Below are positions 6,035-52,338 of a DNA stretch of 54,127 nucleotides, piece by piece. A model generated the notes under the pieces. It was given only the letters and a program-made list of their open reading frames with translations, was not told the origin of the DNA and searched no databases. Origin of the DNA: a virus (Duplodnaviria; Heunggongvirae; Uroviricota; Caudoviricetes); IMG/VR virus record IMGVR_UViG_3300028327_000833, positions 98,516 through 152,642 of that record. One strand, 5' to 3'. Numbering within the stretch: position 1 is the first letter of the stretch; each line of letters starts with the position of its first letter. Both the position numbers and the translations under genes were made by a program.

Positions 6035-6154
6035 ATTCTATTCAAATGCATCCGCAAGCCGAAGTAACGGCTTGTAAAGCGGGAATTAAACGTCAAATCG
6101 AACGGCCTGATCAGAATTGATAAGGATTTAGTAGGTTTGAGCAAGTTTTAAGGA

Positions 6155-6523
6155 ATGGCAGTGGAACATATAGAAAAATACGTCGAAATGATTGACGATT
6201 GCGAGCATGAAAAGGAATTCCATCAAATAATCGTCATGGCTATTCAGGATCGATGGCGGGCGGACTTTCCCAGCTACGTCGTCCGCAGCGCCGCCAAAGA
6301 CCGCAAAGCGTACGAAACCGCGCTAATCGGGCCTGGTAAGTTCATATCTCACATCCTGAACGCCGTGGACAGGACTGACTTCACAAGAGGCGGTTATTAC
6401 ATAGAAAACTATCACAAACTCACCAAAGGCGTAGATACCGCCGAAGAGTGCAAACGGCTGATCCACGACATCCTGGCTTGTCCGGATTTGCGGATATGGC
6501 TAATCGAGACGATCGGAGGATAG
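6155..6523 (+). CDS. Hypothetical protein
   Basis: ORF track, ATG with AAGG upstream. Confidence 0.65.
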   Translation: MAVEHIEKYVEMIDDCEHEKEFHQIIVMAIQDRWRADFPSYVVRSAAKDRKAYETALIGPGKFISHILNAVDRTDFTRGGYYIENYHKLTKGVDTAEECKRLIHDILACPDLRIWLIETIGG

Positions 6524-39356: not shown

Positions 39357-40636
39357 ATAGTTACCTCTTTTGTTATCAAATCTTGCAAGCGTAATAACCT
39401 GCATGTTTTTTAACAAAATCGGTTTTGAACCCGGAACCATATTTTCCGAGGGAGAAACGGCCAAGGGTGTTCAAGGCGCCGACCATATCGGCTTTGCCTG
39501 CATAGCCACAAGACAGACACCTGAACGCCTCTTGACTTAACCGGTTCCCCTTCTCGACGTGACCGCAGACCGGACAAGTAGTAGAGTTGTAGAAAGCAGG
39601 TACCCGCCGTAAGGAAACACCGTTTTCTTCAGCAAGCATTTCTACCCTGCTGTCCAACAACCCGCTTGTCCAGCCGTCGAGAACTGAACGCATACTTTTA
39701 GTTAAGCGTCCTTTAACTTTGCTGTTCCTTTTAATATCCTTGTTATTTTCAATACAGATTAATTTAGTTTCTTTAAAAGGCAACTCTTTACATGTTTTAG
39801 AAATGTAATATTTAATCTCTTTTTTACATTTCTTCCACGACCTTGAGTTGCGTTTTTTCCGTTTCAGTTTCTGTAAAAGCGGCTTTATCCGGTCGCCGTA
39901 AACAACACCCTCGTCAGAGGTTAAAAGGTTCGTGGCTCCGGGGTCTAACCCTATAATATCACCTTCCGTTTTCTTAGGGACGTCAGCTTCAAAAGAAAAC
40001 TGGATATATTTATCTGTTAAAATAACGGAACTTGAAAGTTTGCCTTTAGAGTTCCATTTTTCAAAACAACGGTTCTTTTTCAAAGGTATCGCTATTTTAA
40101 CCGCCCGTTGTCTGCTATCGAAACATTTTAACTCTACTAGAAGATCGAAGTCTTCTAAATCAGGGTTAAGGTTTACAGATACCAGCTGACTCGACAAAAC
40201 GGCTTTTGTTTTGCAATGTTTAGGTTTCGTATACGGCTGTTTTAACTCTTTGCAACTTTTAATCTGGCCGTCTACCATACCGTAGGTTTCAGCTAAAACG
40301 ACTTGTTTAGCTCTGGCCGTCAGCCACGTTTCCGGTACTTTGTAATTTTTATGGACATCGAACTTAGAGTCGCCGTCTTCTATACGGTTTTTTATACCGT
40401 CTATAGCGGAAGACGCGACAGCGTCATACTCAGACAGCAAGTCTTTTATACGGCCGGACTTGCTTCCGGTTATCCACTTCGAGAAGTGGCATTTGACGCT
40501 TCTGTTGAACTTCATTTTTCAAGTTCCTTTAAGAGAGTCTAAAAATTTTAGCCTGACTATATAGTTTCATAACTCAAAGCTAACATGTTTGACAATAAAA
40601 AACAATATTTGATAATAAAACCTATAAATGTATTAA
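39357..40636 (-). mobile_element. TnpA-less tnpB element, copy 1 (1280 bp)
   Basis: Boundaries from identity with copy 2: follows ATGTAT, ends GGTAACTAT (3-nt TAT ambiguity); left-end hairpin ATGTATT-T-AATACAT. Confidence 0.85.
39376..40515 (-). CDS. tnpB: TnpB RNA-guided nuclease
   Basis: RuvC I GLDPG, RuvC II CIENN, Zn finger CPVCG...CLSCG, RuvC III ADMVGALN. Confidence 0.95.
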   Translation of the reverse strand: MKFNRSVKCHFSKWITGSKSGRIKDLLSEYDAVASSAIDGIKNRIEDGDSKFDVHKNYKVPETWLTARAKQVVLAETYGMVDGQIKSCKELKQPYTKPKHCKTKAVLSSQLVSVNLNPDLEDFDLLVELKCFDSRQRAVKIAIPLKKNRCFEKWNSKGKLSSSVILTDKYIQFSFEADVPKKTEGDIIGLDPGATNLLTSDEGVVYGDRIKPLLQKLKRKKRNSRSWKKCKKEIKYYISKTCKELPFKETKLICIENNKDIKRNSKVKGRLTKSMRSVLDGWTSGLLDSRVEMLAEENGVSLRRVPAFYNSTTCPVCGHVEKGNRLSQEAFRCLSCGYAGKADMVGALNTLGRFSLGKYGSGFKTDFVKKHAGYYACKI

Positions 40637-40666
40637 ATACATAGGCTTTGTAGTCGTCGAGCTCTA

Positions 40667-40855
40667 TCATTTGAGCTGTTTCTCCGAATCGATTTTCTTT
40701 TTTAGCGCCACAATCTCCGCTTCGGTCAAATCGGCTATCGAAACGGCGTCCTTTTTTATGTCAACGATGACGTATTGCAAAGCATCGTAGTCCCAGCAAA
40801 GCAGTTTTCCGTCAGGGCGTTTAACGCAACTTTTTAGAAAATCGTTTAAACTCAT
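40667..40855 (-). CDS. Small hypothetical protein (paralogue of 40852-41088)
   Basis: CVKRPDGKLLCWDYDALQY; SD GGAGG. Confidence 0.7.
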   Translation of the reverse strand: MSLNDFLKSCVKRPDGKLLCWDYDALQYVIVDIKKDAVSIADLTEAEIVALKKKIDSEKQLK

Positions 40856-41088
40856 ATAACCTCCGGTGTCTGATTGGACGGCTTCTTGACCATCCTATCC
40901 AACAATTTCTTCGCCTCTTCGGGCGTCACCTTGTCAGGGCTTATCGGTTCAGCTTGAAACCGAACTAAACGATAGTCCTTAGCTTCATCGTCCCAGCAAA
41001 TCGCCGTCCCGTCCGGGCGGGACACGCAGTTAGCGAGCAACTTGTCAATCCCCACAACAAACCCCCGACATAAAAGTTTAAAAAACAA
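40852..41088 (-). CDS. Small hypothetical protein (paralogue of 40667-40855)
   Basis: CVSRPDGTAICWDDEAKDY; start may be GTG 41055. Confidence 0.65.
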   Translation of the reverse strand: MFFKLLCRGFVVGIDKLLANCVSRPDGTAICWDDEAKDYRLVRFQAEPISPDKVTPEEAKKLLDRMVKKPSNQTPEVI

Positions 41089-41245
41089 TGTGCCTATAAC
41101 CTAAAGATAGCTAAATTTAGGCAAAAAACCAACTCCAAGAAGCGGGTTTAATCCATAAAACCCTCAAATTCTACTCGAAAAAGCATTTTTTGCAGATTTT
41201 TCGTTTTTTTTTGTTTTAGGTCTTGACAAAAAACTTACGCTATTT

Positions 41246-41383
41246 AACTCGCCCTAATCCTCGCCCGAATATGCCCCGAATTCCTCGAAAAACCGCGTTT
41301 CGAGGCCGTTCGAGGGGGTCAGGGGCCGGGCCGTCGGGCGCGTCCGAGGGCGACGGCGGTCTCCGGGGTGACTTGCGTATATT
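41246..41383 (+). repeat. Dispersed GC-rich intergenic repeat, copy A
   Basis: Near-identical to 42488-42633; pieces at 24341-24357, 25065-25139 and 22604-22698. Confidence 0.9.
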
Positions 41384-41501
41384 GGATCTGATGCTGTTCA
41401 GGGCAGGAAGACAGGAGACTTCGTTTTATCCGGGGTGACGGCATTATATTGGTTTTGATAGTCGGCGGATGATTTTAAACAATTTCAACAAGGAGGTTAT
41501 T

Positions 41502-41849
41502 ATGGACAAGTTCGAGTTCGTATCGTACAACGAAGAAGACCGCGACGACGCGCTCTGTTTCGGGAGGATGGTATTCAAGTACAACGGACGGCCGTGCAAA
41601 ACCGGGACAGGTTTCCTATGTCCGCACAATACCTTTGAGGTATGTCGCGTCAAGACTTGGACAACGCAGGATATTGATTGGAAATCTATTCACGCAAATA
41701 TCTCAGAAGATGAGAAACCGCTATTCGTAAAATTGGTGGTAGATCACGTGATACCGCTAATCTCGAATTGTGATTGTTGCAGCAAACCGCATGACGGTTA
41801 TATAGACGGCGTAAACTTATCAAATAAGCACATTAAGGTGCTTGACTAG
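41502..41849 (+). CDS. Hypothetical moron protein
   Basis: ATG 41502 with SD AGGAGG; two CCGGGGTGAC-N5-TATATT motifs upstream. Confidence 0.7.
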   Translation: MDKFEFVSYNEEDRDDALCFGRMVFKYNGRPCKTGTGFLCPHNTFEVCRVKTWTTQDIDWKSIHANISEDEKPLFVKLVVDHVIPLISNCDCCSKPHDGYIDGVNLSNKHIKVLD

Positions 41850-42393
41850 ACAAAGATCCGTTGAAATCACTGTAATCGCCACGAAATTTACGCAACAGCG
41901 GCTTATATTCACTACTAGCATCCCGTGAGAGGTAAGCCCCTTTTATGGGATGAAATCTTATCGCGCCCGGATTGTCGTCTGCGAACTTTTTAGCAACGGC
42001 AATCGCTTTCTGCGGCGCATTTTTTATTCGCAACAAGCGCTGATCCAATTCCTTTTTAGTGACGGCGTCAGCATTTGCACGATCGACTTTAAATTTTTTC
42101 TGTGCATTTCTAAACCTCATTTTTGTATTCGCTATCTTGGTCTGATCTTCGACATCCTGTATCTCTTTGTCGAGATCGGGATCGTTTCTATGCCGATTTT
42201 TGAAAGACTGTAAAACCGCAAGCTGATCGCTCGGATGCCCGCTGACGTTCCTTGCAAGACTAGTGGCGGCGGCATCAACGCACCTTCTAAAGGAAACCTC
42301 GTCAACCCGTCTGCCGTCCGCATCGCGAGCGTCAATATTCACGTGTTCGTATAGCTTCAAAATCCGTCCTACCGCCGCGTCGAGTTCATCCAT
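41833..42393 (-). CDS. Basic protein with shared MDELDAxVGRILKLYE leader
   Basis: Leader shared with two other ORFs; unrelated C-terminus. Confidence 0.7.
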   Translation of the reverse strand: MDELDAAVGRILKLYEHVNIDARDADGRRVDEVSFRRCVDAAATSLARNVSGHPSDQLAVLQSFKNRHRNDPDLDKEIQDVEDQTKIANTKMRFRNAQKKFKVDRANADAVTKKELDQRLLRIKNAPQKAIAVAKKFADDNPGAIRFHPIKGAYLSRDASSEYKPLLRKFRGDYSDFNGSLSSQAP

Positions 42394-42487
42394 AGAAAGG
42401 TTCCCTTCAGGCTATAATATAGTCACGAAACAACGTTTTTGCTTAAAAAATCTAATTTTTTTTCAAGGTCGGCTCTGGAACCCATAA

Positions 42488-42633
42488 AACTCGCCCTAAT
42501 CCTCGCCCGAATATGCCCCGAATTCCTCGAAAAACCGCGTTTCGAGGCAGTCCGAGGGGTTCGGGGGCGGGCCGTCGGGCGCATCCGAGGGCGACGGCGG
42601 TCGCGGCGGTCTCCGGGGTGACTGTATTATATT
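42488..42633 (+). repeat. Dispersed GC-rich intergenic repeat, copy B
   Basis: Near-identical to 41246-41383; bracketed by imperfect inverted repeat TATAATATAGTCAC (42413-42426) / GTGACTGTATTATA. Confidence 0.9.
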
Positions 42634-42682
42634 TGACTTTGGAGGGCGGCAGATAATATTTTAATCTAAAAAGGAGGCGGTT

Positions 42683-43306
42683 ATGACGGATTCATTAAAG
42701 GCGGCGGCGGACACGGTTGCGGAAGTTGCGCGGCAGGTCGACGGAGACCCGTATAGCATTAAAGTGGTCGGATGGCTTGTTTTAACGCTTACTGCGATAT
42801 TTGCTTTTAAATTTGCCGCAGAATGTATCATTAAGAAAAAATTTGTTCTTGGTGCAGGTACTTCACTTTACGCCCATGACTACAGGCCTATTTTAGAAGT
42901 ATTGTGGGCGTTGACCGCTATCACTACCGGAATTATTATTCGAGTGCTAATCGCAGACGGGACAAATGATAAAGCCGCACATATACTATTTGTCGGTATA
43001 GGGCTGTTGTCGGCGGCATCAGTCGGCTTTTTTGTATCCGAATATCTAACCGTAGTATACAAAGGGTCTTTAAATAAACCGCTATACTATATTAACAAAA
43101 CTATCGCGGAATGGACTTGGGTGTGCTGGCTGGTTTATAGCGGCGGCAGTTTTATCTCAAACTTTGTTAATTTAGGTGACGAATTTGAACCGCTTACCTG
43201 GAAAGATTGCTTTACTTTTACGTTTATATTACCTATCGCGGTATTTATACTTAAAGTTAGTTTAATCGCTATTAAATATCGTAGTTTAAAATCGCACAAC
43301 CGTTAA
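42683..43306 (+). CDS. Polytopic membrane protein (about 5 TM), moron
   Basis: Five hydrophobic stretches; AT-rich; SD AAGGAGG; own promoter motif and terminator. Confidence 0.75.
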   Translation: MTDSLKAAADTVAEVARQVDGDPYSIKVVGWLVLTLTAIFAFKFAAECIIKKKFVLGAGTSLYAHDYRPILEVLWALTAITTGIIIRVLIADGTNDKAAHILFVGIGLLSAASVGFFVSEYLTVVYKGSLNKPLYYINKTIAEWTWVCWLVYSGGSFISNFVNLGDEFEPLTWKDCFTFTFILPIAVFILKVSLIAIKYRSLKSHNR

Positions 43307-43319
43307 TGGTTGTGCGATT
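43290..43319. terminator. Hairpin between convergent genes (bidirectional terminator candidate)
   Basis: Perfect 12-bp stem AATCGCACAACC/GGTTGTGCGATT. Confidence 0.65.
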
Positions 43320-43340
43320 AGTGTTATTTATTCTTAGCTA

Positions 43341-43691
43341 CTAGTGTCTAGGACGTTTTGCGCCGTGTATAAAATCATCCAAAAAACCTTTACCGGATAT
43401 TGCGGGTTTAGGTTTAAATTGCTGGTTACTGTCAGCAGGCTCAACTGTTCCTGAGTACGGTTTAATGCTAGTTTTGCCGGGCGGGGTTGTGGAATTGCCC
43501 ATAGCGTCATCCCTAATTTGATTGTCTCGCATTACTGGTTGCGAAGATACTCGATTGCTAATAGGAGAACTCTGAGTAGAATCCGTCTGCTCAGGCTGAC
43601 TGCTCACCGTTCCGAGCGCGGCTTCCTCGTCCACCTCGACATGCTCGTACAGCTTCAGAATCCTGCCGACGATTGCGTCTAACTCGTCCAT
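43341..43691 (-). CDS. Ser/Pro-rich protein with shared MDELDAxVGRILKLYE leader
   Basis: ATG 43691 with SD GAGG; leader shared. Confidence 0.7.
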   Translation of the reverse strand: MDELDAIVGRILKLYEHVEVDEEAALGTVSSQPEQTDSTQSSPISNRVSSQPVMRDNQIRDDAMGNSTTPPGKTSIKPYSGTVEPADSNQQFKPKPAISGKGFLDDFIHGAKRPRH

Positions 43692-43772
43692 AACGGCCTC
43701 GCGTTTATGAGATTTTATAAAATTTGGCAAGAAAACCGTTCCTTAAAACTCACTCAAACCTACTAAATCCTT

Positions 43773-43922
43773 ACAGTCGGCGCTTTAAACGTCCTTGGCC
43801 GCTTCTCCCTCGGAAAATATGGTTCCGGGTTCAAAACCGATTTTGTTAAAAAACATGCAGGTTATTACGCCTGCAAGATTTGATAACAAAATCGGTAACT
43901 ATCACCGTTAGTCTTTTACCAA
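43773..43922 (+). ncRNA. Stand-alone omega-RNA-like copy of the tnpB 3' end / right end, plus putative guide (43903-43922)
   Basis: About 130 bp homologous to the last part of both tnpB elements, opposite strand; 13-bp stem 43836-43848/43884-43896 and TGCAGG/CCTGCA inner stem; no tnpB ORF or left end. Confidence 0.7.
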
Positions 43923-46679
43923 CCGAACGTTGAACATATTGTCTTTTGACGTATTAAGGTTAGACGTATTCATGCCCGGATTGAACCTTATCATATAACC
44001 ATCTGTCGTTGGCGCACTCGGATATGGTGTAGACGTCCAGAATTTTGCATACGCGCCAATACTCGAATAGAAGTTATTCGATGACGGAGGAGTAACAGAA
44101 GTCGTGTCGCCTCCCGGTAAGACACAAAACCCATATCTATCTATTCCGTTATTGTTATTTGACCACCCGATGGTAGACATAAGGGATTTTGATACTTGCG
44201 TATTCCCGTTGGCTAACGTATCTCCATCTCCTATTATAGCTACTCGAAGATTAAACCACTCTGCATTAGTGGCTACGTGCCAGCCCGGAATACAAGCCTG
44301 TAGTGCTCCATCAAACGTGTATAACAGTCCATAATGACCGTAGTTTATCCGACTCCTGTCATACCACACTGCCTTTGTAGTGTCGTTTAGGTTATACTCC
44401 AAATTCTGCGCTAACCAAATGTTCCCGTCAGGCATACGTACTGTTCTGTATACCTTATTATCACGCGAGTCTTTTATGTACCCGAATATATCGCCCGTTA
44501 TTGACGGAGAGCCACCACCTCCAGACTGCGCAGGTGCGACGAACAGGCCGCCATCACTTCCTGTAGTTATTTGGTTATTCGCGTCGGTTGATACGGATGT
44601 CGCGCCCTCTATCCTTGCGAGGGTCTCGGTGACTATGCCACCGGAGTAGTTCATTCGCATTACCCTATATGTGCCGCTGGTCGCCACCGCAACTAATACT
44701 CTGTTGCTGTAGGCGACACTTAGCCAACTATTATTTTCCGTCGCCGCGACCGCTGTCCACGTTTGCCCGTTATCGGTGGAACGCATTACTCTGTTTGCGC
44801 CGGTACTCGCCACCGCTACAAATACCCCATTGCCGTAGGTGACACCGAACCACTGATTATTTGCAGCAGCCGCGACCGCTGTCCACGTTTGCCCATTGTC
44901 AACGGAGCGCATTACCCGATTTGTACCGTCATACGACACCGCGACGAATGTCCCGTTGCCGTAGGTGACACTGTACCAACTATTATTTGCAGCAGCCGCG
45001 ACCGCTGTCCACGTTTGCCCATTGTCAACGGAGCGCATTACCTGATTTGTACCGTCACCCGCCACCGCTACGAATGTCCCGTTGCCGTAGGTGACACTGT
45101 ACCAACTATTATTTTCCGTCGCCGCGACCGCTGTCCACGTTTGCCCATTGTTAACGGAGCGCATTACCCGATTTGTACCGTCATTCGACACCGCTACAAA
45201 CACCCCATTGCCGTAGGCGACATTGCGCCACTGATTATTTCCAGTCGCCGCAACCGCTGCCCACGTCGCCCCGTTATCGGTGGAACGCATTACCCGATTT
45301 GTACCGCTATTCGCCACCGCTACAAACACCCCATTGCCGTAGGCGACACTGCGCCAACCATTATTTTCAGCCGCCGTAACAGCCGTCCATGTTTGCCCGT
45401 TGTCAACGGAACGCATTACCCTATTTGTGCCGTCGGTCGCTACCGCGACAAACACCCCATTGCCGTAGGCGACACTGACCCACTGATTATTTTCAGCCGC
45501 CGCGACCGCCGTGTTGTTTAACACTATCTCCTCCACCCTCTTGACCAACGCCAAATACCCATTTGTCGTCATTGCGGTCGAAAGTATCAAGTCTCCAACT
45601 TGAACTTCCCGCCCTGCCGGAGGTGTAATTTCTACCATATCTTTCTCGCCGCCGATGGCAGTATTCAGCGCGGTGGGCGTAGTGTAGACGGAATACCCGT
45701 CCCTGCCGTCTTCGACATGCGTTTGGTCAGGCAGCGTATACTGGCCGCACACGTCAAGTTTAGTGTATCCGTAGTAAGTATTCGCACTGCCGTGCCACAG
45801 CATAAAGTATATCGTATAGGCTTTAAACATAACATCGCCGGGATTGACTTCGCCGTCGTTAATCATATCCAGCACGCGCTTGCCGTTTATCCAGAAGTGG
45901 GCGTTTGAGCTAATCGTCATCTCGACTTCATTAGTCTCGAAGAGGACGTCGCAATCAAACTGTACCGGAACTATCAGAGGCCGTCCCACTATCGGCGGCA
46001 GAAACTCCGCTTGGTTATTGTTGCCCGCTTTCACAAGCCCTTCGGAGACATATAAACGATCCCACGGCAGTGAATTTATCCACGAGTGCGGATAATACCT
46101 CGAAGCTACTGGACGCCATTGCCCGTCGGACGTCAGAAACGCCGAACCGTCCGCGCGATTCATCTGCGTATCCGCCTTAACGCCCGTATCCTCGCCGTTG
46201 ATTATCAGCCTGCGCTCGTACAACTCACTGGGCGCGTGGTCGTCAAGACTGAGTGAGGCTTCGGGCGAGGCTGACCCCCAAAACCAAATTAAAGCCATCT
46301 GAACGTCTTCCCACACTTCAACCGCGTTCTCGCCGTCGCCCTCGACCCGCCGCACCGCCGTTACCGCGACGAACCCGTCGCCGTAACGGCTCGGATCGAC
46401 GCCCGTGATCTCGCCGTACTCGTTGTAGCTGGCCCCCCACTCGACGGCTTTTTCGCGGGTGTAGAACCAATCTTTGGGAGACACCTTGCCCCACAAGTCC
46501 CCGTTGCCGATGTCGAAAGTGCGGTTCTCCGTTACCGCGGGAGCCCACATGACTTTGACGTCTACGGCCGCCGCCGAACCGCCGCCGTTCTGACCGACGA
46601 GGGCGTCGACGGCGTCTTTATTGTACCACTCTTGCTCTAATTTACGGCTTTTGATTAAACCAGGAACCGGTGCGTTCAT
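43908..46679 (-). CDS. Tail fibre / receptor-binding protein: seven 42-aa beta-propeller repeats and C-terminal FISUMP (Fib_succ_major) domain
   Basis: Repeats WxSVxYGNGxFVAV...RVMRSxDNGQTW; DSRDNKVYRTV...WLAQNL...YGLLY...GWHV...FWTST...NVRLVKD; ATG 46679 with SD GAGG. Confidence 0.85.
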   Translation of the reverse strand: MNAPVPGLIKSRKLEQEWYNKDAVDALVGQNGGGSAAAVDVKVMWAPAVTENRTFDIGNGDLWGKVSPKDWFYTREKAVEWGASYNEYGEITGVDPSRYGDGFVAVTAVRRVEGDGENAVEVWEDVQMALIWFWGSASPEASLSLDDHAPSELYERRLIINGEDTGVKADTQMNRADGSAFLTSDGQWRPVASRYYPHSWINSLPWDRLYVSEGLVKAGNNNQAEFLPPIVGRPLIVPVQFDCDVLFETNEVEMTISSNAHFWINGKRVLDMINDGEVNPGDVMFKAYTIYFMLWHGSANTYYGYTKLDVCGQYTLPDQTHVEDGRDGYSVYTTPTALNTAIGGEKDMVEITPPAGREVQVGDLILSTAMTTNGYLALVKRVEEIVLNNTAVAAAENNQWVSVAYGNGVFVAVATDGTNRVMRSVDNGQTWTAVTAAENNGWRSVAYGNGVFVAVANSGTNRVMRSTDNGATWAAVAATGNNQWRNVAYGNGVFVAVSNDGTNRVMRSVNNGQTWTAVAATENNSWYSVTYGNGTFVAVAGDGTNQVMRSVDNGQTWTAVAAAANNSWYSVTYGNGTFVAVSYDGTNRVMRSVDNGQTWTAVAAAANNQWFGVTYGNGVFVAVASTGANRVMRSTDNGQTWTAVAATENNSWLSVAYSNRVLVAVATSGTYRVMRMNYSGGIVTETLARIEGATSVSTDANNQITTGSDGGLFVAPAQSGGGGSPSITGDIFGYIKDSRDNKVYRTVRMPDGNIWLAQNLEYNLNDTTKAVWYDRSRINYGHYGLLYTFDGALQACIPGWHVATNAEWFNLRVAIIGDGDTLANGNTQVSKSLMSTIGWSNNNNGIDRYGFCVLPGGDTTSVTPPSSNNFYSSIGAYAKFWTSTPYPSAPTTDGYMIRFNPGMNTSNLNTSKDNMFNVRLVKD
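44655..45515 (-). repeat. Intragenic 126-bp tandem repeats (7 units)
   Basis: GTCCAC anchors at 44755, 44881, 45007 (period 126). Confidence 0.9.
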
Positions 46680-46728
46680 AAGCGCCTCTCTTACGGAAAA
46701 AGTTTCAGAAGTCAATCAAGTCTAAAGT

Positions 46729-46869
46729 TTACTCCGGTTTCTCCGGCCAAACAATGTTGTACGGATAATCGGGATGCTTCTCCGGGTGATGGCCGTCGGT
46801 ATCCCGCAGGTCGCTGCGATACTTCGCCCAAGCCGCCCGCTGTTGCGCGGAAATCGGCGCGTCATCCAA
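46729..46869 (-). pseudogene. C-terminal half of a tail-fibre assembly chaperone
   Basis: Not in track; DAPISAQQRAAWAKYRSDLRD...YPYNIVWPEKPE matches the WxxYRxxLRD...WPxxP signature; N-terminal half missing, only a TTG start. Confidence 0.6.
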
Positions 46870-46891
46870 ACGTGGAACGGCGCGAAAAAAC

Positions 46892-47374
46892 TTAAGTTAT
46901 CGGCTCGAAAACCAAGTCGCCCCATATATCGTCTTTTAAAGCGTCGATCGTTACCCCGGAAGACGTCAACCCGCCTCCCGCGGTAATTACAGGGATTTCG
47001 TCTCCGTGAGAAGAGCCGAGCTTATCGATTTTATTGGAAAGATCGACCTTCTCGAACACGTGGAACAGCGCCCAAGCAAGCGCGCCGGTCTCCTCGTTGA
47101 TTCCGGTGATCTGATAAATCGCCGCGTCGCCTCCATTAGTCTCGTCCGCCCGCACCCAAGTGAAATCGTTGACGGTCGGCGCGACGGTGAAACCTGATTT
47201 ATTGGTCGGCAAGACGGCCTTGGTCGCTACCGACGCGGGAACGGTTTTGCTTCCGAGATCGGTCAGATTTTGAATCCTCGCGCGCAGGTCAGCAGTCAAC
47301 TGATCCACATACGCGTCGTTGTACCACGACTGCTCTAACTTGGTGCTGCTGATTTTACCTATAACTGTAGCCAT
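46892..47374 (-). CDS. Tail-associated protein
   Basis: KLEQSWYND motif shared with 46679 fibre; TVNDFTWVR module shared with 32017-34044; SD AGGAGG. Confidence 0.65.
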   Translation of the reverse strand: MATVIGKISSTKLEQSWYNDAYVDQLTADLRARIQNLTDLGSKTVPASVATKAVLPTNKSGFTVAPTVNDFTWVRADETNGGDAAIYQITGINEETGALAWALFHVFEKVDLSNKIDKLGSSHGDEIPVITAGGGLTSSGVTIDALKDDIWGDLVFEPIT

Positions 47375-47405
47375 AACCTACCTCCTTATTATAGTTTAAG
47401 AATTT

Positions 47406-47684
47406 TTAGGTTAATTCCTCGAAAACTAAATCGTCGCCGCCGCCTCCGCCTCCCGAACCGACAGCGGGATCGGGAATGAAGTTATCGCGCGCAATCCCGC
47501 CCACAAAGCGGTAATACCGCTGTTCGGATTTAATGTAGATCTGGAGACCGTCATACCGGCGGGCGTTCGATACGCCGCCCTGAGCCGCAGGCAGAAAAAC
47601 CGCGTCCACGGTTTCGTACAGCAGCCTGTCATCCACCGGCTCGCCGTTGCCTATCTTAAGCCCCCCGCCCAAAGAAATCGCCAT
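47406..47684 (-). CDS. Small tail-associated protein
   Basis: PVDDR...RYDGLQIYI...YY pattern; ends DLVFE like 46892-47374. Confidence 0.55.
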   Translation of the reverse strand: MAISLGGGLKIGNGEPVDDRLLYETVDAVFLPAAQGGVSNARRYDGLQIYIKSEQRYYRFVGGIARDNFIPDPAVGSGGGGGGDDLVFEELT

Positions 47685-47698
47685 AAAAACCTCCTATT

Positions 47699-48589
47699 TT
47701 AGAACACTGCTTTAAGCGTGACTCCGGTCGTCGGGCCGGCAGTCCACAGATAGCCCGTCAGACTCTGACCGCCGACTGTTACGGAATTAACCTGCGAGAA
47801 ACTGCTTAACGTGGTGGCGGTTAAACCCATGTCAAGAATGTCGGACGGTTTCTGAGTCAGGAAATAGAACGGACGGCCGCCTTCGTCTTCGTCAAGATGC
47901 GGCGTCACAAGCCAAGAAGACTGCGCCTGAGTTTTCGTAACCGCTTCGATGAAATCGAATATCGCGTCGCTTGTCTCAAAGGTTCCGCCCTCAACCGCCG
48001 ACAACTGGCGCGAGTGGTTAATCACCCCGTGATAACCGAACATTCCGGCGGGAGGCGTTACGACGACGGGTCTGTCTATAACCGCGCCGTAACTGACGAC
48101 GATCGTCATCACGGCCACGTTGCCGTCTTCGTTATTTCCGTCGACCGACGAACTGGAAACCGCGCCGCCGCTTCCGCCGGAGCCCGACACGGAAACCGTC
48201 GGAGGATTCTCCGGGTCGAAGTAATACCTGCCGGAGGGCGTAAGCGTAAACGTCGCCGTATAAGACGTTCCTTTGACGGCGGCCGCGTCCGCGGGGCTCC
48301 AAACCACGTCGGCGCGCCACCCGCTTCCGCCCGCCGCGCCTTTTAACGCGCCTCCCGTATACGGGGCGGCGGGGAGCGTGACCGAGCGTACCGCCCTCGG
48401 TTTGCTTGACGGGTCGTCGAGAAGCTGGTTGCCCTTTTCGCCCCACCAATACAGCCCGTCATAGTCTACGTTCTTCGGGACGCACGACAAAAAACTCTGC
48501 GCGCACAAAGACGCGTCAGGCCCCCAGTTCGGGTTCTCGAAAGTATCGGCGCGTTCCGCCTCAAATCCCCAAGGATCGATTCCGCTCAT
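47699..48589 (-). CDS. Putative virion surface protein with Ig-like domain
   Basis: GTSYTATFTLTP...YYF beta-rich domain; SD AGGAG; start 48589. Confidence 0.5.
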   Translation of the reverse strand: MSGIDPWGFEAERADTFENPNWGPDASLCAQSFLSCVPKNVDYDGLYWWGEKGNQLLDDPSSKPRAVRSVTLPAAPYTGGALKGAAGGSGWRADVVWSPADAAAVKGTSYTATFTLTPSGRYYFDPENPPTVSVSGSGGSGGAVSSSSVDGNNEDGNVAVMTIVVSYGAVIDRPVVVTPPAGMFGYHGVINHSRQLSAVEGGTFETSDAIFDFIEAVTKTQAQSSWLVTPHLDEDEGGRPFYFLTQKPSDILDMGLTATTLSSFSQVNSVTVGGQSLTGYLWTAGPTTGVTLKAVF

Positions 48590-48621
48590 GTCTGACTCCT
48601 TTTTATTGAACAAATTTTAAG

Positions 48622-48810
48622 TTACGCGTCCATCCACGGCAGCACGTTGGTGCCGCTCCACTCGTCGGCTTCGGCGGCGTTGTAGAACTCGGTCTGCGCC
48701 TCGGTGACGGCCGGGCCGCAGGTGATAGGATTAAGCCGGCAGTATGAATTGTCCATCGTCAAAGCGTCGACGGACGGAGTCTGCCCAGGTTCGGTAATTA
48801 TATCTTCCAT
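48622..48810 (-). CDS. Small acidic protein
   Basis: ATG 48810 with SD GGAG; late promoter motif 48854-48885. Confidence 0.6.
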   Translation of the reverse strand: MEDIITEPGQTPSVDALTMDNSYCRLNPITCGPAVTEAQTEFYNAAEADEWSGTNVLPWMDA

Positions 48811-48908
48811 AATCGGCTCCTTCAACAGTGTAAGACGGTTTTGCGTTATGTTCTTAAGATAACGAAATATGCGAAAATTAACAAATCCGCGCTTACGCGC
48901 CGCCCGCC

Positions 48909-49658
48909 TCAATATTCGTCTCTCATGTCCGACTGCATATCTATAAGTCTGTCCAATCCAGGGTTAGTCGTGACGCCGCGCCACAATTTAGCGAGATGCT
49001 TGCATAAGGCGGGCGTTTCGCGGCCGTTTCGAATCCTGCCGGGGCCCGGATCCGCGCGCGTCGTCGCGGCGTATTCCACCGACCCGGCAATGCGGCGCTG
49101 GCTTACGTTAAAATTTCTAAGAGCTTTCACGGCATGGTTCGGATACGCCAAGTTATATTTAAACGCTTCGCAGTCGCAGTAAACCTTGCCTTTCATATCC
49201 GGCCGCCAGCCGTCCTTTACCGTCGTTCTGTACACGGCGATTTCCGGGCGATGCTCGGTGCCCTTCGCGGTATTCACCACACGGCCGGTTATAACCAGCC
49301 CCGTTTTGTCGTCGACCAGCTCCGCCTTAACCCCCTCAAGCCGCAAAACTTCCAAATTCGACACGGGAACCTGTCTGCCGTGCGCAAACACGGGCTTCCC
49401 GTTTTTGTCTTTTTTCCAAGCGTTAGGAAAAACCCGCCGAAAAGACAAATCCATGTCGGAGACGTCGGTTCCGATGGAATCGACGCGGCGTTCCCGCTTC
49501 GACCTGGCTATCGACGGGGCTACGGAGGATTCGGCGACCGCAGACGGCTCAGGCGCGGCAGACCGCGCGACGCCGGCATAGCTCTGCCCGTACAGCCCGG
49601 ATCGCGCGGAAACGTCGGGCGTATAGTTACCTCTTTTATTATCAAACATTGCAGGCAT
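48909..49658 (-). CDS. SWIM-type zinc-finger protein; start codon lies inside tnpB element copy 2
   Basis: VYCDCEAFKY...N...ALCKHL; GGAGG-CTATT-ATG at 49668-49656. Confidence 0.75.
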   Translation of the reverse strand: MPAMFDNKRGNYTPDVSARSGLYGQSYAGVARSAAPEPSAVAESSVAPSIARSKRERRVDSIGTDVSDMDLSFRRVFPNAWKKDKNGKPVFAHGRQVPVSNLEVLRLEGVKAELVDDKTGLVITGRVVNTAKGTEHRPEIAVYRTTVKDGWRPDMKGKVYCDCEAFKYNLAYPNHAVKALRNFNVSQRRIAGSVEYAATTRADPGPGRIRNGRETPALCKHLAKLWRGVTTNPGLDRLIDMQSDMRDEY

Positions 49659-50902
49659 AATAGCCTCCATGTTTTTTAACAAAATCGGTTTTGAACCCGG
49701 AACCATATTTTCCGAGGGAGAAACGACCAAGGGTATTCAAGGCGCCGACCGTATCGGCTTTGTCTGCATAGTCACAAGACAGACACCTGAACGCCTCTTG
49801 ACTTAACCGGTTCCCCTTCTCGACGTGACCACAGACCGGACAAGTAGTGGAGTTGTGGAAAGCAGGCACCCGTCTGAGGGAAACACCGTTTTCCTCCGAG
49901 AGCATTTCTACCCTGCTGTCCAGCAACCCGCTTGTCCAGCCGTCGAGAACTGAACGCATATTTTTAGTTAAGCGTCCTTTAACTTTGCTGTTCCGTTTAA
50001 TATCCTTGTTATTTTCAATACAGATTAATTTAGTCTCCTTAAAAGGCAACTCTTTACATGTTTTAGAGACGTAATATTTAATTTCTTTTTTACACTTTTT
50101 CCACGACCTTGAGTTGCGTTTTTTCCGTTTCAGTTTCTGTAAAAGCGGCTTTATCCGGTCGCCGTAAATAACGCCCTCGTCTGAAGTTAAAAGGTTCGTG
50201 GCTCCGGGATCTAAACCTATAATACTGCCTTCCGTTTTCTTAGGGACGTCAGCTTCAAAAGAAAACTGGATGTATTTGTCTGTTAAAATAACGGAACTTG
50301 AAAGTTTGCCTTTAGAGTTCCACTTTTCAAAACAGCGGTTCTTTTTCAAGGGTATCGCTATTTTAACCGCTTTCCTTCTGCTATCGAAACATCTTAACTC
50401 AACTAAAAGATCGAACGCTTCTAATTGAGGGTTAAGGTTTACAGATGCTAAATTGCAAGACAAAACGGCTTTTGTTTTGCAATGTTTAGGTTTCGTATAC
50501 GGCTGTTTTAACTCTTTGCAACTTTTAATCTGGCCGTCTACCATACCATAGGTTTCGGCTAGAGCGACTTGTTTCGCTCTGGCCGTCAGCCACGTTTCCG
50601 GTACTTTGTAATTTTTAAAGACGTCGAATTTAGAGTCGCCGTCTTCTATACGGCTTTTTACAACGTCAATAGCTGAAGTCGCTACGGCGTCATATTCAGA
50701 AAGCAAGTCTTTTATACGGTCAGACTTGCTTCCGGTTATCCACTTCGAGAAGTGGCATTTGACGCTTCTGTTGAACTTCATTTTTCAAGTTCCTTTAAGA
50801 GAGTCTAAAAATTTTAGCCTGACTGTATAGTTTCATAACTCAAAGCTAACACATTTGATAACAAAAAACAATATTTGATAATAAAACCTATAAATGCATT
50901 AA
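49623..50902 (-). mobile_element. TnpA-less tnpB element, copy 2 (1280 bp)
   Basis: Same length and ends as copy 1. Confidence 0.85.
49642..50781 (-). CDS. tnpB: TnpB RNA-guided nuclease, copy 2
   Basis: GLDPG, CIENN, CPVCG...CLSCD, ADTVGALN; roughly 93-94% aa identity to copy 1 by manual comparison. Confidence 0.95.
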   Translation of the reverse strand: MKFNRSVKCHFSKWITGSKSDRIKDLLSEYDAVATSAIDVVKSRIEDGDSKFDVFKNYKVPETWLTARAKQVALAETYGMVDGQIKSCKELKQPYTKPKHCKTKAVLSCNLASVNLNPQLEAFDLLVELRCFDSRRKAVKIAIPLKKNRCFEKWNSKGKLSSSVILTDKYIQFSFEADVPKKTEGSIIGLDPGATNLLTSDEGVIYGDRIKPLLQKLKRKKRNSRSWKKCKKEIKYYVSKTCKELPFKETKLICIENNKDIKRNSKVKGRLTKNMRSVLDGWTSGLLDSRVEMLSEENGVSLRRVPAFHNSTTCPVCGHVEKGNRLSQEAFRCLSCDYADKADTVGALNTLGRFSLGKYGSGFKTDFVKKHGGYYACNV

Positions 50903-50907
50903 ATACA

Positions 50908-52338
50908 TTATTGGCCTCGATAGCCTTGCATGAACGACTGCATTATGCCGCGGTTGCCGTAACCGCCGCCTGACTGCTGATTCGCTTTTTTAAGCATCTT
51001 CAGCCTGTATGCCGGATTGGCCATCTTCGTCATGTTTTTGTACATGGCGCGGTTGTAATTCAGTTCGTCGCGCTCAAGTCCGCGCTGTCCTTTTTCCATC
51101 GCGCGGGCGTGTCTGTTCGCCGCGCTGTGCTTGTCTAAAAATCCGGCGAAACCCGTTTTTATCGCGCCGCTCGCGATGCCTTGCACTCTCTGCTGATGCG
51201 CGGCGTCGGCGGCTTGCTGTTTGGCGGCCTTAATGTCGCGCCCCTGCTGCACTTTCCTGAATCTGTCGGGATTCCGCGCCTGCATCAGCGTATCCTGCGC
51301 CTGTTGCCGCTGGTTCTTCATATCGGCGGTCTGATTGGCGATCTCGGTGTCGCGCTGCATCGCGTTCATCGCGTACTGCTGTTTGTTCTGCGCCGTCCAC
51401 AGCTTGTTGTACGCCCGCGCGCCAGCCAGCTTCTGCTTCGCGGCCGCGGCTCCGGCGTAATTCGCCCGTTTATCGTTCTCGCGGTTTAATTCGACGCCTG
51501 CTTGATTAGTCCTCGTGATATTGCGGGCGTCCTGGTTGACCAAAGTTTTGGCGGCCATGCCGATGCCGCGTCCGATGCCGCCTCCCGCAGCCCTGCGCCC
51601 TTGATTGAAAGCGTGGAACGCCGTCCGCAAGCCCTCGTCCGCTCCGCCCTCGAACAGCTGCACGCCGGCGTAATGGCGGTTTTTCACCGCCAAAGCGTCA
51701 GCTCTGCGTGAATCTCTTTCGGCTTTTCTATGAGTCCGCCGGATCGCGTCTTCGGCGCGCGCGTTGTCGCGGGCTTCTTTGGCCGCCGTCTCGCGTTCCA
51801 GTCGATCCGCCTTATTTTGCTGATGCCGCGCGTACGCTTTGTAAATCGGTTTTCCGACCGCGACGCCCGCTTTACAAAAGACTTTATAAGCGGCGTCTCC
51901 GGCCTTTTTCTTTAACTCGGGCGCTTTTTTACGGATGTACTCCCGCGCCTTTTCGTCGCCCTTTATGATTGTGTCCTGAAGTTTTCCGAAACCGTAAAAC
52001 GCTTTGCGTCCGAGACTTTTTAAACCGCCGTGCTTTTCGGGACGGCTTTCAGGTTCGGGCTCCGGTCGATTTTTATACTGTTTCTGCAGCTCTACGGCTT
52101 TCCCGCGCATATACCGCGCAATTTTAGCGCTCGCGCGACTCTTTTCCCCGTCTTTCCAAGCCTGACGCTTGTCTTTGCGCCCTTGCGCGACTTCCGTGCG
52201 CCACGCGTCGCGGGACATTTTGCGTCCGCTGGGCAGAATTACAGAGTCCCCGCGGTAGACCGGAGCGCCTCCGAAGTCGACGCCGCGTTCGTATACCGCG
52301 CAGCCGTACTGCTCGTTGAATTCGCTGATAAGAGACAT
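50908..52338 (-). CDS. Large basic Ala/Gln/Lys/Arg-rich protein, putative internal virion protein
   Basis: Low-complexity helical composition, AVYE and LFEG motifs; function inferred only. Confidence 0.5.
   Translation of the reverse strand: MSLISEFNEQYGCAVYERGVDFGGAPVYRGDSVILPSGRKMSRDAWRTEVAQGRKDKRQAWKDGEKSRASAKIARYMRGKAVELQKQYKNRPEPEPESRPEKHGGLKSLGRKAFYGFGKLQDTIIKGDEKAREYIRKKAPELKKKAGDAAYKVFCKAGVAVGKPIYKAYARHQQNKADRLERETAAKEARDNARAEDAIRRTHRKAERDSRRADALAVKNRHYAGVQLFEGGADEGLRTAFHAFNQGRRAAGGGIGRGIGMAAKTLVNQDARNITRTNQAGVELNRENDKRANYAGAAAAKQKLAGARAYNKLWTAQNKQQYAMNAMQRDTEIANQTADMKNQRQQAQDTLMQARNPDRFRKVQQGRDIKAAKQQAADAAHQQRVQGIASGAIKTGFAGFLDKHSAANRHARAMEKGQRGLERDELNYNRAMYKNMTKMANPAYRLKMLKKANQQSGGGYGNRGIMQSFMQGYRGQ

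What the first reader, a model, noticed from the sequence alone, without database searches (positions are those of the whole stretch)
43773..43922. Stand-alone omega-RNA-like locus whose guide reads into the tip of the receptor-binding fibre gene
About 130 bp matching only the 3' end of the tnpB elements lies on the opposite strand, with no ORF and no left end. Its structure is conserved or improved: ACCGATTTTGTTA/TAACAAAATCGGT is a perfect 13-bp stem (the full elements have a tandem GA/AG mismatch), and the inner TGCAGG/CCTGCA stem is intact. It ends at the same GGTAACTAT, and the next 20 nt (CACCGTTAGTCTTTTACCAA) span the stop codon of the FISUMP fibre gene (seen). Omega-RNA derives from exactly this region (knowledge). 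Inference: a third, trans-acting guide for the two TnpBs, a minimal multi-guide system directing cuts or recombination at the host-range gene of competing alleles.
Basis: partly seen in the sequence, partly recalled or inferred. Interest (0 to 1): 0.85.

Follow-up and report, generated by a model that had tools for sequence, protein, structure and literature searches.

The report
Truncated IS607 end behind fibre gene
A 127-base leftover of the right end of an IS607-type jumping gene, the part that encodes the guide RNA of its TnpB nuclease, sits five bases past the stop codon of a phage fibre-like gene; it is real and well preserved, but it lacks the front third of the family's guide-RNA fold and nothing here shows that it works as a guide on its own.

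Summary
Window 43776-43902 (+) is a 127-nt copy (88-97% identity) of the last 127 nt of a 1286-bp tnpB element. It ends at the same ...GGTAACTAT, and the next 20 nt run across the stop codon of the BNR/Fib_succ_major gene.

- The 152.6-kb phage record holds six full copies, not two.
- One copy still carries a serine-recombinase tnpA, so the family is IS607.
- Six left-end flanks share GTAT, not ATGTAT.

An alignment of 36 family members shows a covarying RNA fold of at least 194 nt. The solo copy has only the 3' arms of three of its helices (25 pairs lost). Hairpin H4, the terminal stem and the tail are intact.

Its one private change, GA>TC, perfects a 13-bp stem. Relatives carry either state at that position.

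The "guide" is simply the insertion flank. I found no left end, no tnpB remnant, no convincing + strand promoter and no target allele.

My reading: a 5'-truncated IS607 right-end relic (0.55). Rivals are an orphan trans-acting guide (0.2) and reuse as the fibre mRNA's 3' hairpin (0.15). Earlier notes of this scan describe stranded IS607/IS605 ends on other DNA.

The parts
43776..43902 (+). Solo right-end fragment, equal to positions 1160-1286 of the 1286-bp IS607-type element. It holds the 3' two thirds of the omega-RNA scaffold plus the transposon end.
   Evidence: The nhmmer right-end profile gives E = 1.4e-25, as good as the full copies, and there is no hit to the upstream profile.
43776..43808 (+). 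Orphaned 3' arms of family helices H3 (43776-43781), H2 (43784-43792) and H1 (43797-43808). Their 5' partners are absent.
   Evidence: RNAalifold on A3, pair counts with slid controls, and the fold of the solo in its own context.
43809..43829 (+). Hairpin H4 (CTCGG...CCGGG), intact.
   Evidence: 100% paired in 36 sequences, with two pairs showing changes on both sides.
43836..43896 (+). Terminal stem-loop: outer 13-bp stem 43836-43848 / 43884-43896 and inner stem 43856-43861 / 43870-43875.
   Evidence: The basal stem covaries across the family.
43892..43893 (+). TC dinucleotide, the only private change of the solo copy (GA in all six full copies). It turns a tandem G.A/A.G mismatch into G-C and A-U pairs.
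   Evidence: Both states occur among relatives.
43897..43902 (+). Tail AACTAT, the end of the scaffold and of the transposon. The resident site reads CTAT where a target would need GTAT.
   Evidence: The analogy to the CboIStron pair UCGG/TGGG comes from PMC10690162.
43903..43922 (+). Would-be guide, which is the insertion flank. It is complementary to the last four codons, the stop and 5 nt of 3' UTR of the fibre-like gene.
   Evidence: It has no second match in the genome.
43908..46715 (-). Fibre-like gene (BNR/Asp-box repeats, six 126-nt tandem repeats, C-terminal Fib_succ_major domain). A receptor-binding role is inferred, not shown.
43341..43691 (-). 116-aa ORF of no known family, downstream of the fibre-like gene on the same strand. 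It was called as a gene in the second assembly.
43738..43773 (-). 36-nt motif abutting the left edge of the solo copy. It recurs at window 6119-6156 (+) just before a 122-aa ORF.
39357..40642 (-). Full tnpB-only IS607 copy E1 (tnpB 39376-40515).
49623..50908 (-). Full tnpB-only IS607 copy E2 (tnpB 49642-50781).

Best explanation
The 127 nt are a stranded, 5'-truncated right end of an IS607-family element.

An element of the family that is present in six full copies in this phage once inserted, convergent with the fibre-like gene, at a GTAT site 5 bp past that gene's stop codon (inferred). A later deletion or illegitimate recombination removed the left end, tnpB and the first 67 nt of the omega-RNA region. 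It joined the remainder to the leader of the 116-aa gene (inferred).

The remnant keeps hairpin H4, the terminal stem and the transposon end. Either the event is recent or the copies exchange sequence by gene conversion.

Its single private change, GA>TC, is what one template switch within a quasi-palindrome produces: the 5' arm is copied into the 3' arm, which perfects the inverted repeat without any selection (inferred).

The 'guide into the fibre gene' is the flank that any right end of this family abuts. The relic has no demonstrated activity of its own.
For: - Six full 1286-bp copies plus this one fragment are in the genome. The fragment equals element positions 1160-1286 exactly, up to the shared end.
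- The family is IS607. Copy D carries a 185-aa TnpA with a resolvase catalytic domain at residues 52-178. The other five copies carry a 499-bp tnpA deletion.
- There is no left end and no tnpB trace within 9 kb, so this is not a protein-less mini-element.
- The family-wide fold spans at least 194 nt. Helices H1, H2 and H3 are 96-99% paired in 36 sequences, with 10 pairs changed on both sides, against 8-57% paired in slid controls. The solo copy starts inside the loop of H3 and cannot rebuild the 100-nt 5' domain.
- The + strand context is poor for expression. The upstream + strand gene ends in a 13-bp terminator-like hairpin, only one 9/12 promoter-like match follows, and the left neighbour is a - strand gene leader.
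- Shared polymorphisms among copies are mosaic, which fits gene conversion keeping copies alike.
- The guide matches only its own flank.
Against: - The remnant shows no random decay. It has one private event in 127 nt, and that event improves pairing, whereas full copy E2 has four private changes in the same stretch.
- The 94-nt 3' core (H4, terminal stem, tail) is complete and scores as well as the functional copies.
- In ISDra2 the 5' region of the omega-RNA (-231 to -117) can be deleted without loss of activity (review PMC13639567). Truncation alone therefore does not prove inactivity.
- Six intact TnpB genes could load the RNA in trans.
- No relative with a full element or an empty site at this locus was found, so the insertion-then-deletion history is inferred, not seen.
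Confidence: 0.55

Rival explanations
1. Orphan trans-acting guide. The fragment is transcribed on the + strand and its 3' core is loaded by one of the six resident TnpBs. The complex then cuts alleles of related, co-infecting phages that carry GTAT next to CACCGTTAGTC... at the end of the fibre-like gene. Repair from this genome would copy the fragment and the linked fibre allele into the rival, which is homing or marker exclusion without the fragment's own nuclease.
For: - The 3' core is intact and undecayed, and the only private change strengthens the terminal stem.
- Six catalytically intact TnpBs are present in trans.
- The resident site is protected by CTAT in place of GTAT, as at all six full copies. 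This matches the UCGG/TGGG logic shown for the CboIStron (PMC10690162).
- ISDra2 tolerates loss of its 5' omega-RNA region (PMC13639567).
- Protein-less elements whose omega-RNAs must be served in trans are already discussed for PATEs (PMC10055086).
Against: - It lacks the 5' arms of three strongly covarying helices, 25 pairs in all.
- I found no convincing + strand promoter, and there is a terminator-like hairpin upstream.
- No target allele was found in the genome or in viral contigs.
- The aim at the fibre gene is automatic for any right end inserted there.
Confidence: 0.2
2. Reuse on the other strand. Read on the - strand, the remnant forms the 3' hairpin of the fibre-gene transcript, acting as an intrinsic terminator, an attenuator or an RNA-stabilising end. 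The GA>TC change was kept because it closes that hairpin.
For: - On the - strand a -31.7 kcal/mol hairpin (z = -5.3) starts 10 nt after the stop codon and is followed by UUUUG. The antisense of the full copies folds at only -18.6 and -21.7 kcal/mol, because G.A/A.G becomes C.U/U.C there.
- The inner hairpin followed by TGTTTTTT is flagged as terminator-like.
- The next gene on that strand has its own leader motif, which recurs before another gene.
Against: - The U tract after the outer stem is short (four U).
- The stem is A/U-rich.
- Any palindromic remnant placed after a gene would look like this.
- There are no transcript data.
Confidence: 0.15

Closest known systems
IS607-family insertion sequences with TnpB and omega-RNA (H. 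pylori IS607; the C. botulinum CboIStron, PMC10690162; ISXfa1 with RAGATH-18-derived RNA, PMC11061315)
   Same: Serine-recombinase TnpA with an N-terminal DNA-binding part. A TnpB with a D/E/D triad and a zinc finger. A guide-RNA scaffold that overlaps the 3' end of tnpB and ends at the transposon boundary. The scaffold end (CTAT) differs by one base from the flank motif at the left end (GTAT), like UCGG/TGGG in the CboIStron.
   Different: The TnpB is only distantly related to solved or studied ones; PDB hits cover just the zinc-ribbon region at E about 1e-10. The RNA does not match RAGATH-18 or any Rfam family. The item in question is a fragment of such an element, not an element.
Stranded or solo ends of insertion sequences (IS scars)
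   Same: One intact terminus, an internal breakpoint, and no partner end or transposase. Earlier notes of this scan describe such relics of IS607/IS605 elements in other genomes; I did not check those notes.
   Different: This one retains a complete 94-nt RNA core, sits in a genome with six intact nuclease genes, and carries a pair-restoring double change.
PATEs and other protein-less IS200/IS605 derivatives that carry an omega-RNA (Meers et al., PMC10055086)
   Same: A guide-RNA module without its own nuclease, which would depend on TnpB supplied in trans.
   Different: PATEs keep both a left and a right end and are mobile. This fragment has no left end and cannot be excised or transposed by TnpA.
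ISDra2 omega-RNA 'Trim1' truncation (described in PMC13639567)
   Same: A 5'-shortened scaffold of about 116-127 nt.
   Different: In ISDra2 the removed part is disordered and self-contained. Here the cut splits three covarying helices and leaves their 3' arms unpaired.
Quasi-palindrome template-switch mutation (established knowledge from E. coli and phage T4 mutagenesis studies)
   Same: Adjacent substitutions arise in one step and convert an imperfect inverted repeat into a perfect one.
   Different: The mechanism is inferred from the outcome only.

Membership tests
IS607 family (the parent element) | Serine-recombinase TnpA with the catalytic domain C-terminal to a small DNA-binding domain | tested here: met
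   Copy D has a 185-aa ORF whose PF00239 resolvase domain lies at residues 52-178 (E = 4e-15). Its stop overlaps the tnpB start.
IS607 family (the parent element) | TnpB with a RuvC D/E/D triad and a CxxC...CxxC zinc finger | tested here: met
   PF07282 hit. D191, E256, D343 and four cysteines are invariant in 32 relatives and present in all six copies.
IS607 family (the parent element) | No terminal inverted repeats, and a shared core at both junctions | tested here: met
   The left-end flank reads GTAT and the right end reads CTAT in six of six copies, and the flanks are otherwise unrelated.
IS607 family (the parent element) | Structured guide RNA encoded at the 3' end of tnpB, running to the right end | tested here: met
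   Covarying helices H1-H4 plus the terminal stem in 36 sequences. RNA expression was not tested.
Functional stand-alone omega-RNA gene | Complete scaffold as conserved in the family | tested here: not met
   Only 127 of at least 194 nt are present, and the 5' arms of H1, H2 and H3 are missing.
Functional stand-alone omega-RNA gene | Own promoter or a carrying transcript on the + strand | tested here: inconclusive
   One 9/12 sigma-70-like match at 43555-43582, and a terminator-like hairpin at 43290-43319 after the upstream + strand gene. The host's promoter type is unknown.
Functional stand-alone omega-RNA gene | The RNA is made and bound by TnpB | not testable with these tools
Functional stand-alone omega-RNA gene | A cognate nuclease available in trans | tested here: met
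   Six intact 379-aa tnpB genes.
Functional stand-alone omega-RNA gene | A TAM-adjacent target exists somewhere | tested here: inconclusive
   None in this genome and none in viral contigs.
PATE-like protein-less mini-element | Both a left end and a right end | tested here: not met
   No left-end similarity within 40650-49600, even at word size 7.

The most novel reading that the evidence does not exclude
The fragment is a nuclease-less homing module. A 127-bp guide-RNA gene borrows the phage's resident TnpBs to cut the unoccupied GTAT-CACCG... allele at the end of the fibre-like gene in co-infecting relatives. It then spreads by recombinational repair and drags the linked fibre allele with it. 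This would be RNA-guided marker exclusion at a likely host-range gene.
Probability: 0.15. Interest if true: 0.75.

Novelty: new member of a known kind. Interest (0 to 1): 0.35.

Why it matters
If it is a relic, it is ordinary, but it still documents three things:
- an active IS607 population in a large termite-gut phage: six intact tnpB copies, one with tnpA, and signs of gene conversion among copies;
- a 194-nt covarying guide-RNA fold for a TnpB lineage that has no Rfam model and no close solved structure;
- a clean example of how such elements decay.

If the orphan-guide reading were true, a guide-RNA gene alone could act as a selfish homing unit between phages at a fibre gene. That would extend the known TnpB homing logic from transposon retention to phage-phage competition.

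Tried and rejected
**Searches that found nothing**
- Rfam, at gathering thresholds over the whole window and at E <= 10 over 43600-44000: no family. The only hits were hairpin-shaped chance matches on the - strand, and RAGATH-18 was not among them.
- Relatives of the locus: no match in the phage collection by distant blastn. No relatives in viral contigs for the right-end 29-mer, TnpB, the small ORF, the fibre C-terminus or the target 18-mer.
- Genome contigs: no match for a degenerate right-end pattern or for the TnpB alignment.
- The representative of the window's own TnpB cluster was not on record for a contig look-up.

**Ideas tested and dropped**
- Mini-element (a left end somewhere upstream): rejected, no left end or tnpB trace.
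- Assembly artefact: rejected. A second assembly is identical across the junction, although I could not establish that its reads are independent.
- Base rate of solo ends in this family: in 46 metagenome loci every right-end hit has its upstream part. Those loci were seeded with TnpB, so this says little.
- Decay test: the solo copy is no more diverged than the full copies. The time of truncation is unknown and the copies recombine, so the test has little power.
- TAM check in the L010/L012 subgroup: only two informative flanks, left inconclusive.

- The genome search does not draw relatives for a virus record and does not hold the metagenome records behind my loci.

Full report
**1. What is there**

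Window 43776-43902 (+) is an inverted copy of the 3' end of the two tnpB elements in the window. It is 94% identical to 39357-39483 and 88% to 49623-49749. All copies end at ...GGTAACTAT and are unrelated beyond it.

The next 20 nt, CACCGTTAGTCTTTTACCAA (43903-43922), cross the TAA stop (43908-43910, - strand) of the 935-aa ORF 43908-46715. That ORF has BNR/Asp-box repeats, six 126-nt tandem repeats and a C-terminal Fib_succ_major domain. I call it fibre-like; a receptor-binding role is inferred.

A second assembly (ENA ERZ27257309, locus L064) is collinear with window 39908-49968 and identical over this junction. Its only eight differences lie inside element E2.

**2. The wider picture changes the premise**

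The window is part of a 152,642-bp IMG/VR record. The record holds six full copies of the 1286-bp element, 92.5-94.6% identical to copy E1, plus this one fragment, which equals element positions 1160-1286.

- All six tnpB ORFs are intact at 379 aa, with the invariant D191/E256/D343 triad and four zinc-finger cysteines.
- Copy D carries an extra 499 bp that complete a 185-aa ORF. This ORF has a resolvase catalytic domain at residues 52-178, and its stop overlaps the tnpB start.
- This domain order and gene pair identify the family as IS607. The other five copies are tnpA-deleted derivatives.
- Six left-end flanks share only GTAT before the element's TTAAT..., while the right end reads CTAT.
- In the C. 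botulinum IS607 IStron the TAM is TGGG and the scaffold ends UCGG. One base there tells target from self (PMC10690162).
- By analogy I predict a GTAT TAM here (inference).

**3. The RNA**

I collected 55 metagenome loci that encode relatives of this TnpB, at roughly 30-64% identity and mostly near 50%. I aligned the last 230 nt up to the right end for 36 distinct sequences (A3).

RNAalifold and my own pair counts give four helices within the coding sequence:

| Helix | A3 columns | % paired | Pairs changed on both sides |
|---|---|---|---|
| H1 | 37-48 / 125-136 | 98.9 | 4 |
| H2 | 59-67 / 112-120 | 96.3 | 6 of 9 |
| H3 | 95-100 / 104-109 | 99.1 | 0 |
| H4 | 137-141 / 153-157 | 100 | 2 |

Partners slid by 1-3 columns pair at only 8-57%.

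Downstream of H4 every member has a terminal stem-loop. Its six-pair base covaries freely and is followed by a 6-nt tail, AACGGT or AACTAT.

- The conserved fold therefore spans at least 194 nt.
- Copy E1 folds into it at -71.5 kcal/mol (z = -5.1), with a closed 100-nt 5' domain.
- The solo copy starts inside the loop of H3.
- It keeps only the 3' arms of H3, H2 and H1 (43776-43808), and its own left flank cannot replace the lost arms.
- H4 (43809-43829), the terminal stem (43836-43896) and the tail are whole.

**4. The 'improved' stem**

The solo copy has one private event, GA>TC at 43892-43893. All other variable sites are shared with one or another full copy, in a mosaic pattern that implies exchange among copies.

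The change turns the tandem G.A/A.G of all six full copies into G-C and A-U. At the same two positions of the basal stem, relatives carry either Watson-Crick pairs (the ...TTTTCAGG type) or non-standard pairs (the ...TTTAAAGG and ...TTGAAGG types). Either state is therefore compatible with the family's RNA.

A single template switch within a quasi-palindrome would produce exactly this double change (established mutational mechanism; inferred here).

The change matters more on the other strand. The - strand hairpin starts 10 nt after the fibre stop and is followed by UUUUG. It folds at -31.7 kcal/mol, against -18.6 and -21.7 for the antisense of the full copies. The inner hairpin plus TGTTTTTT is also flagged as terminator-like.

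**5. Context**

- Nothing resembling a left end or tnpB lies within 40650-49600, so this is not a protein-less mini-element.
- Immediately to the left of the fragment, on the - strand, lies a 36-nt motif that recurs before a 122-aa ORF at window 6155. The 116-aa ORF 43341-43691 follows it.
- On the + strand, the upstream gene (42683-43306) ends in a 13-bp terminator-like hairpin. Only one 9/12 promoter-like match lies between that hairpin and the fragment.
- Each of the seven right-end flanks matches only itself in the genome.
- The 18-mer of the fibre end was not found elsewhere in viral contigs.

**6. Reading**

The simplest account is an IS607 copy that inserted 5 bp past the stop of the fibre-like gene and later lost everything left of position 1160. 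The guide aimed at the fibre tip is then a by-product of where that copy landed.

Points against a plain relic:
- There is no random decay.
- The 94-nt core is complete and scores like the functional copies.
- ISDra2 tolerates loss of its 5' RNA region (PMC13639567).

Guide-RNA modules served in trans are already discussed for PATEs (PMC10055086), so even the functional reading would be a variant of a known idea.

My odds are relic 0.55, orphan guide 0.20, and 3' hairpin of the fibre mRNA 0.15, with the remaining 0.10 unassigned.

**7. Limits**

- I found no relative of this phage locus, so the history is inferred.
- Earlier notes of this scan report stranded IS607/IS605 ends on other DNA, most judged to be scars and a few judged to be possible orphan guides. 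I used them only as leads.

Noticed in passing
genome G000:C1:63793-65574 (outside the window; locus L065 163-720 for tnpA): Only one of the six IS607 copies keeps tnpA (185 aa, resolvase domain). The five tnpB-only copies share the same 499-bp internal deletion, which leaves the first codons of tnpA in place. They probably descend from one deleted progenitor and would depend on copy D for mobility.
   Followed up: partly
window 6119-6156 (+) and 43738-43773 (-): A 36-nt motif, TAAGGATTTAGTAGGTTTGAG..AGTTTTAAGGAA, occurs twice in the genome. One copy ends in the ATG of a 122-aa ORF. The other abuts the solo right end and reads ACG at that place. It may be a shared gene leader or a trace of the recombination that truncated the element.
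   Followed up: partly
window 41246-41369 and 42488-42610: Two copies of a GC-rich direct repeat of about 120 nt (87-94% identical), 1242 bp apart, bracket the 186-aa ORF 41833-42393. A shorter third partial copy lies at 41421-41453. Their function is unknown.
   Followed up: no
window 44656-45585 (-): The fibre-like gene contains six tandem 126-nt (42-aa) repeats, 70-82% identical to the first. They overlap the BNR/Sortilin-like propeller region.
   Followed up: no
A3 columns 69-92 (window 39495-39518 in copy E1): A further hairpin inside the zinc-finger codons covaries across the family (GTCTG/CAGAC, GTCAG/CTGAC, GTAGG/CCTAC, GTGAA/TTCAC). Its register differs by 1 nt between subgroups, so RNAalifold did not call it.
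   Followed up: partly
TnpB family (P0002-P0092; loci L009-L063): This TnpB lineage has 95 relatives in metagenome protein sets, several of them on contigs of 100-365 kb. The pattern-seeded scan found none in the 185,579 species genomes. The lineage may be largely phage-borne or confined to uncultured hosts.
   Followed up: partly
left end of the element (window 40590-40625 in E1) and right end (43878-43888 in the solo): The motif TTATCAAAT occurs twice as a direct repeat in the left end in five of the six copies (in E1 the second copy reads TTGTCAAAC) and once inverted in the right end (ATTTGATAA). These are candidate TnpA binding sites. The solo copy keeps its one, so TnpA from copy D could in principle pair it with a foreign left end and cause rearrangements.
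   Followed up: no
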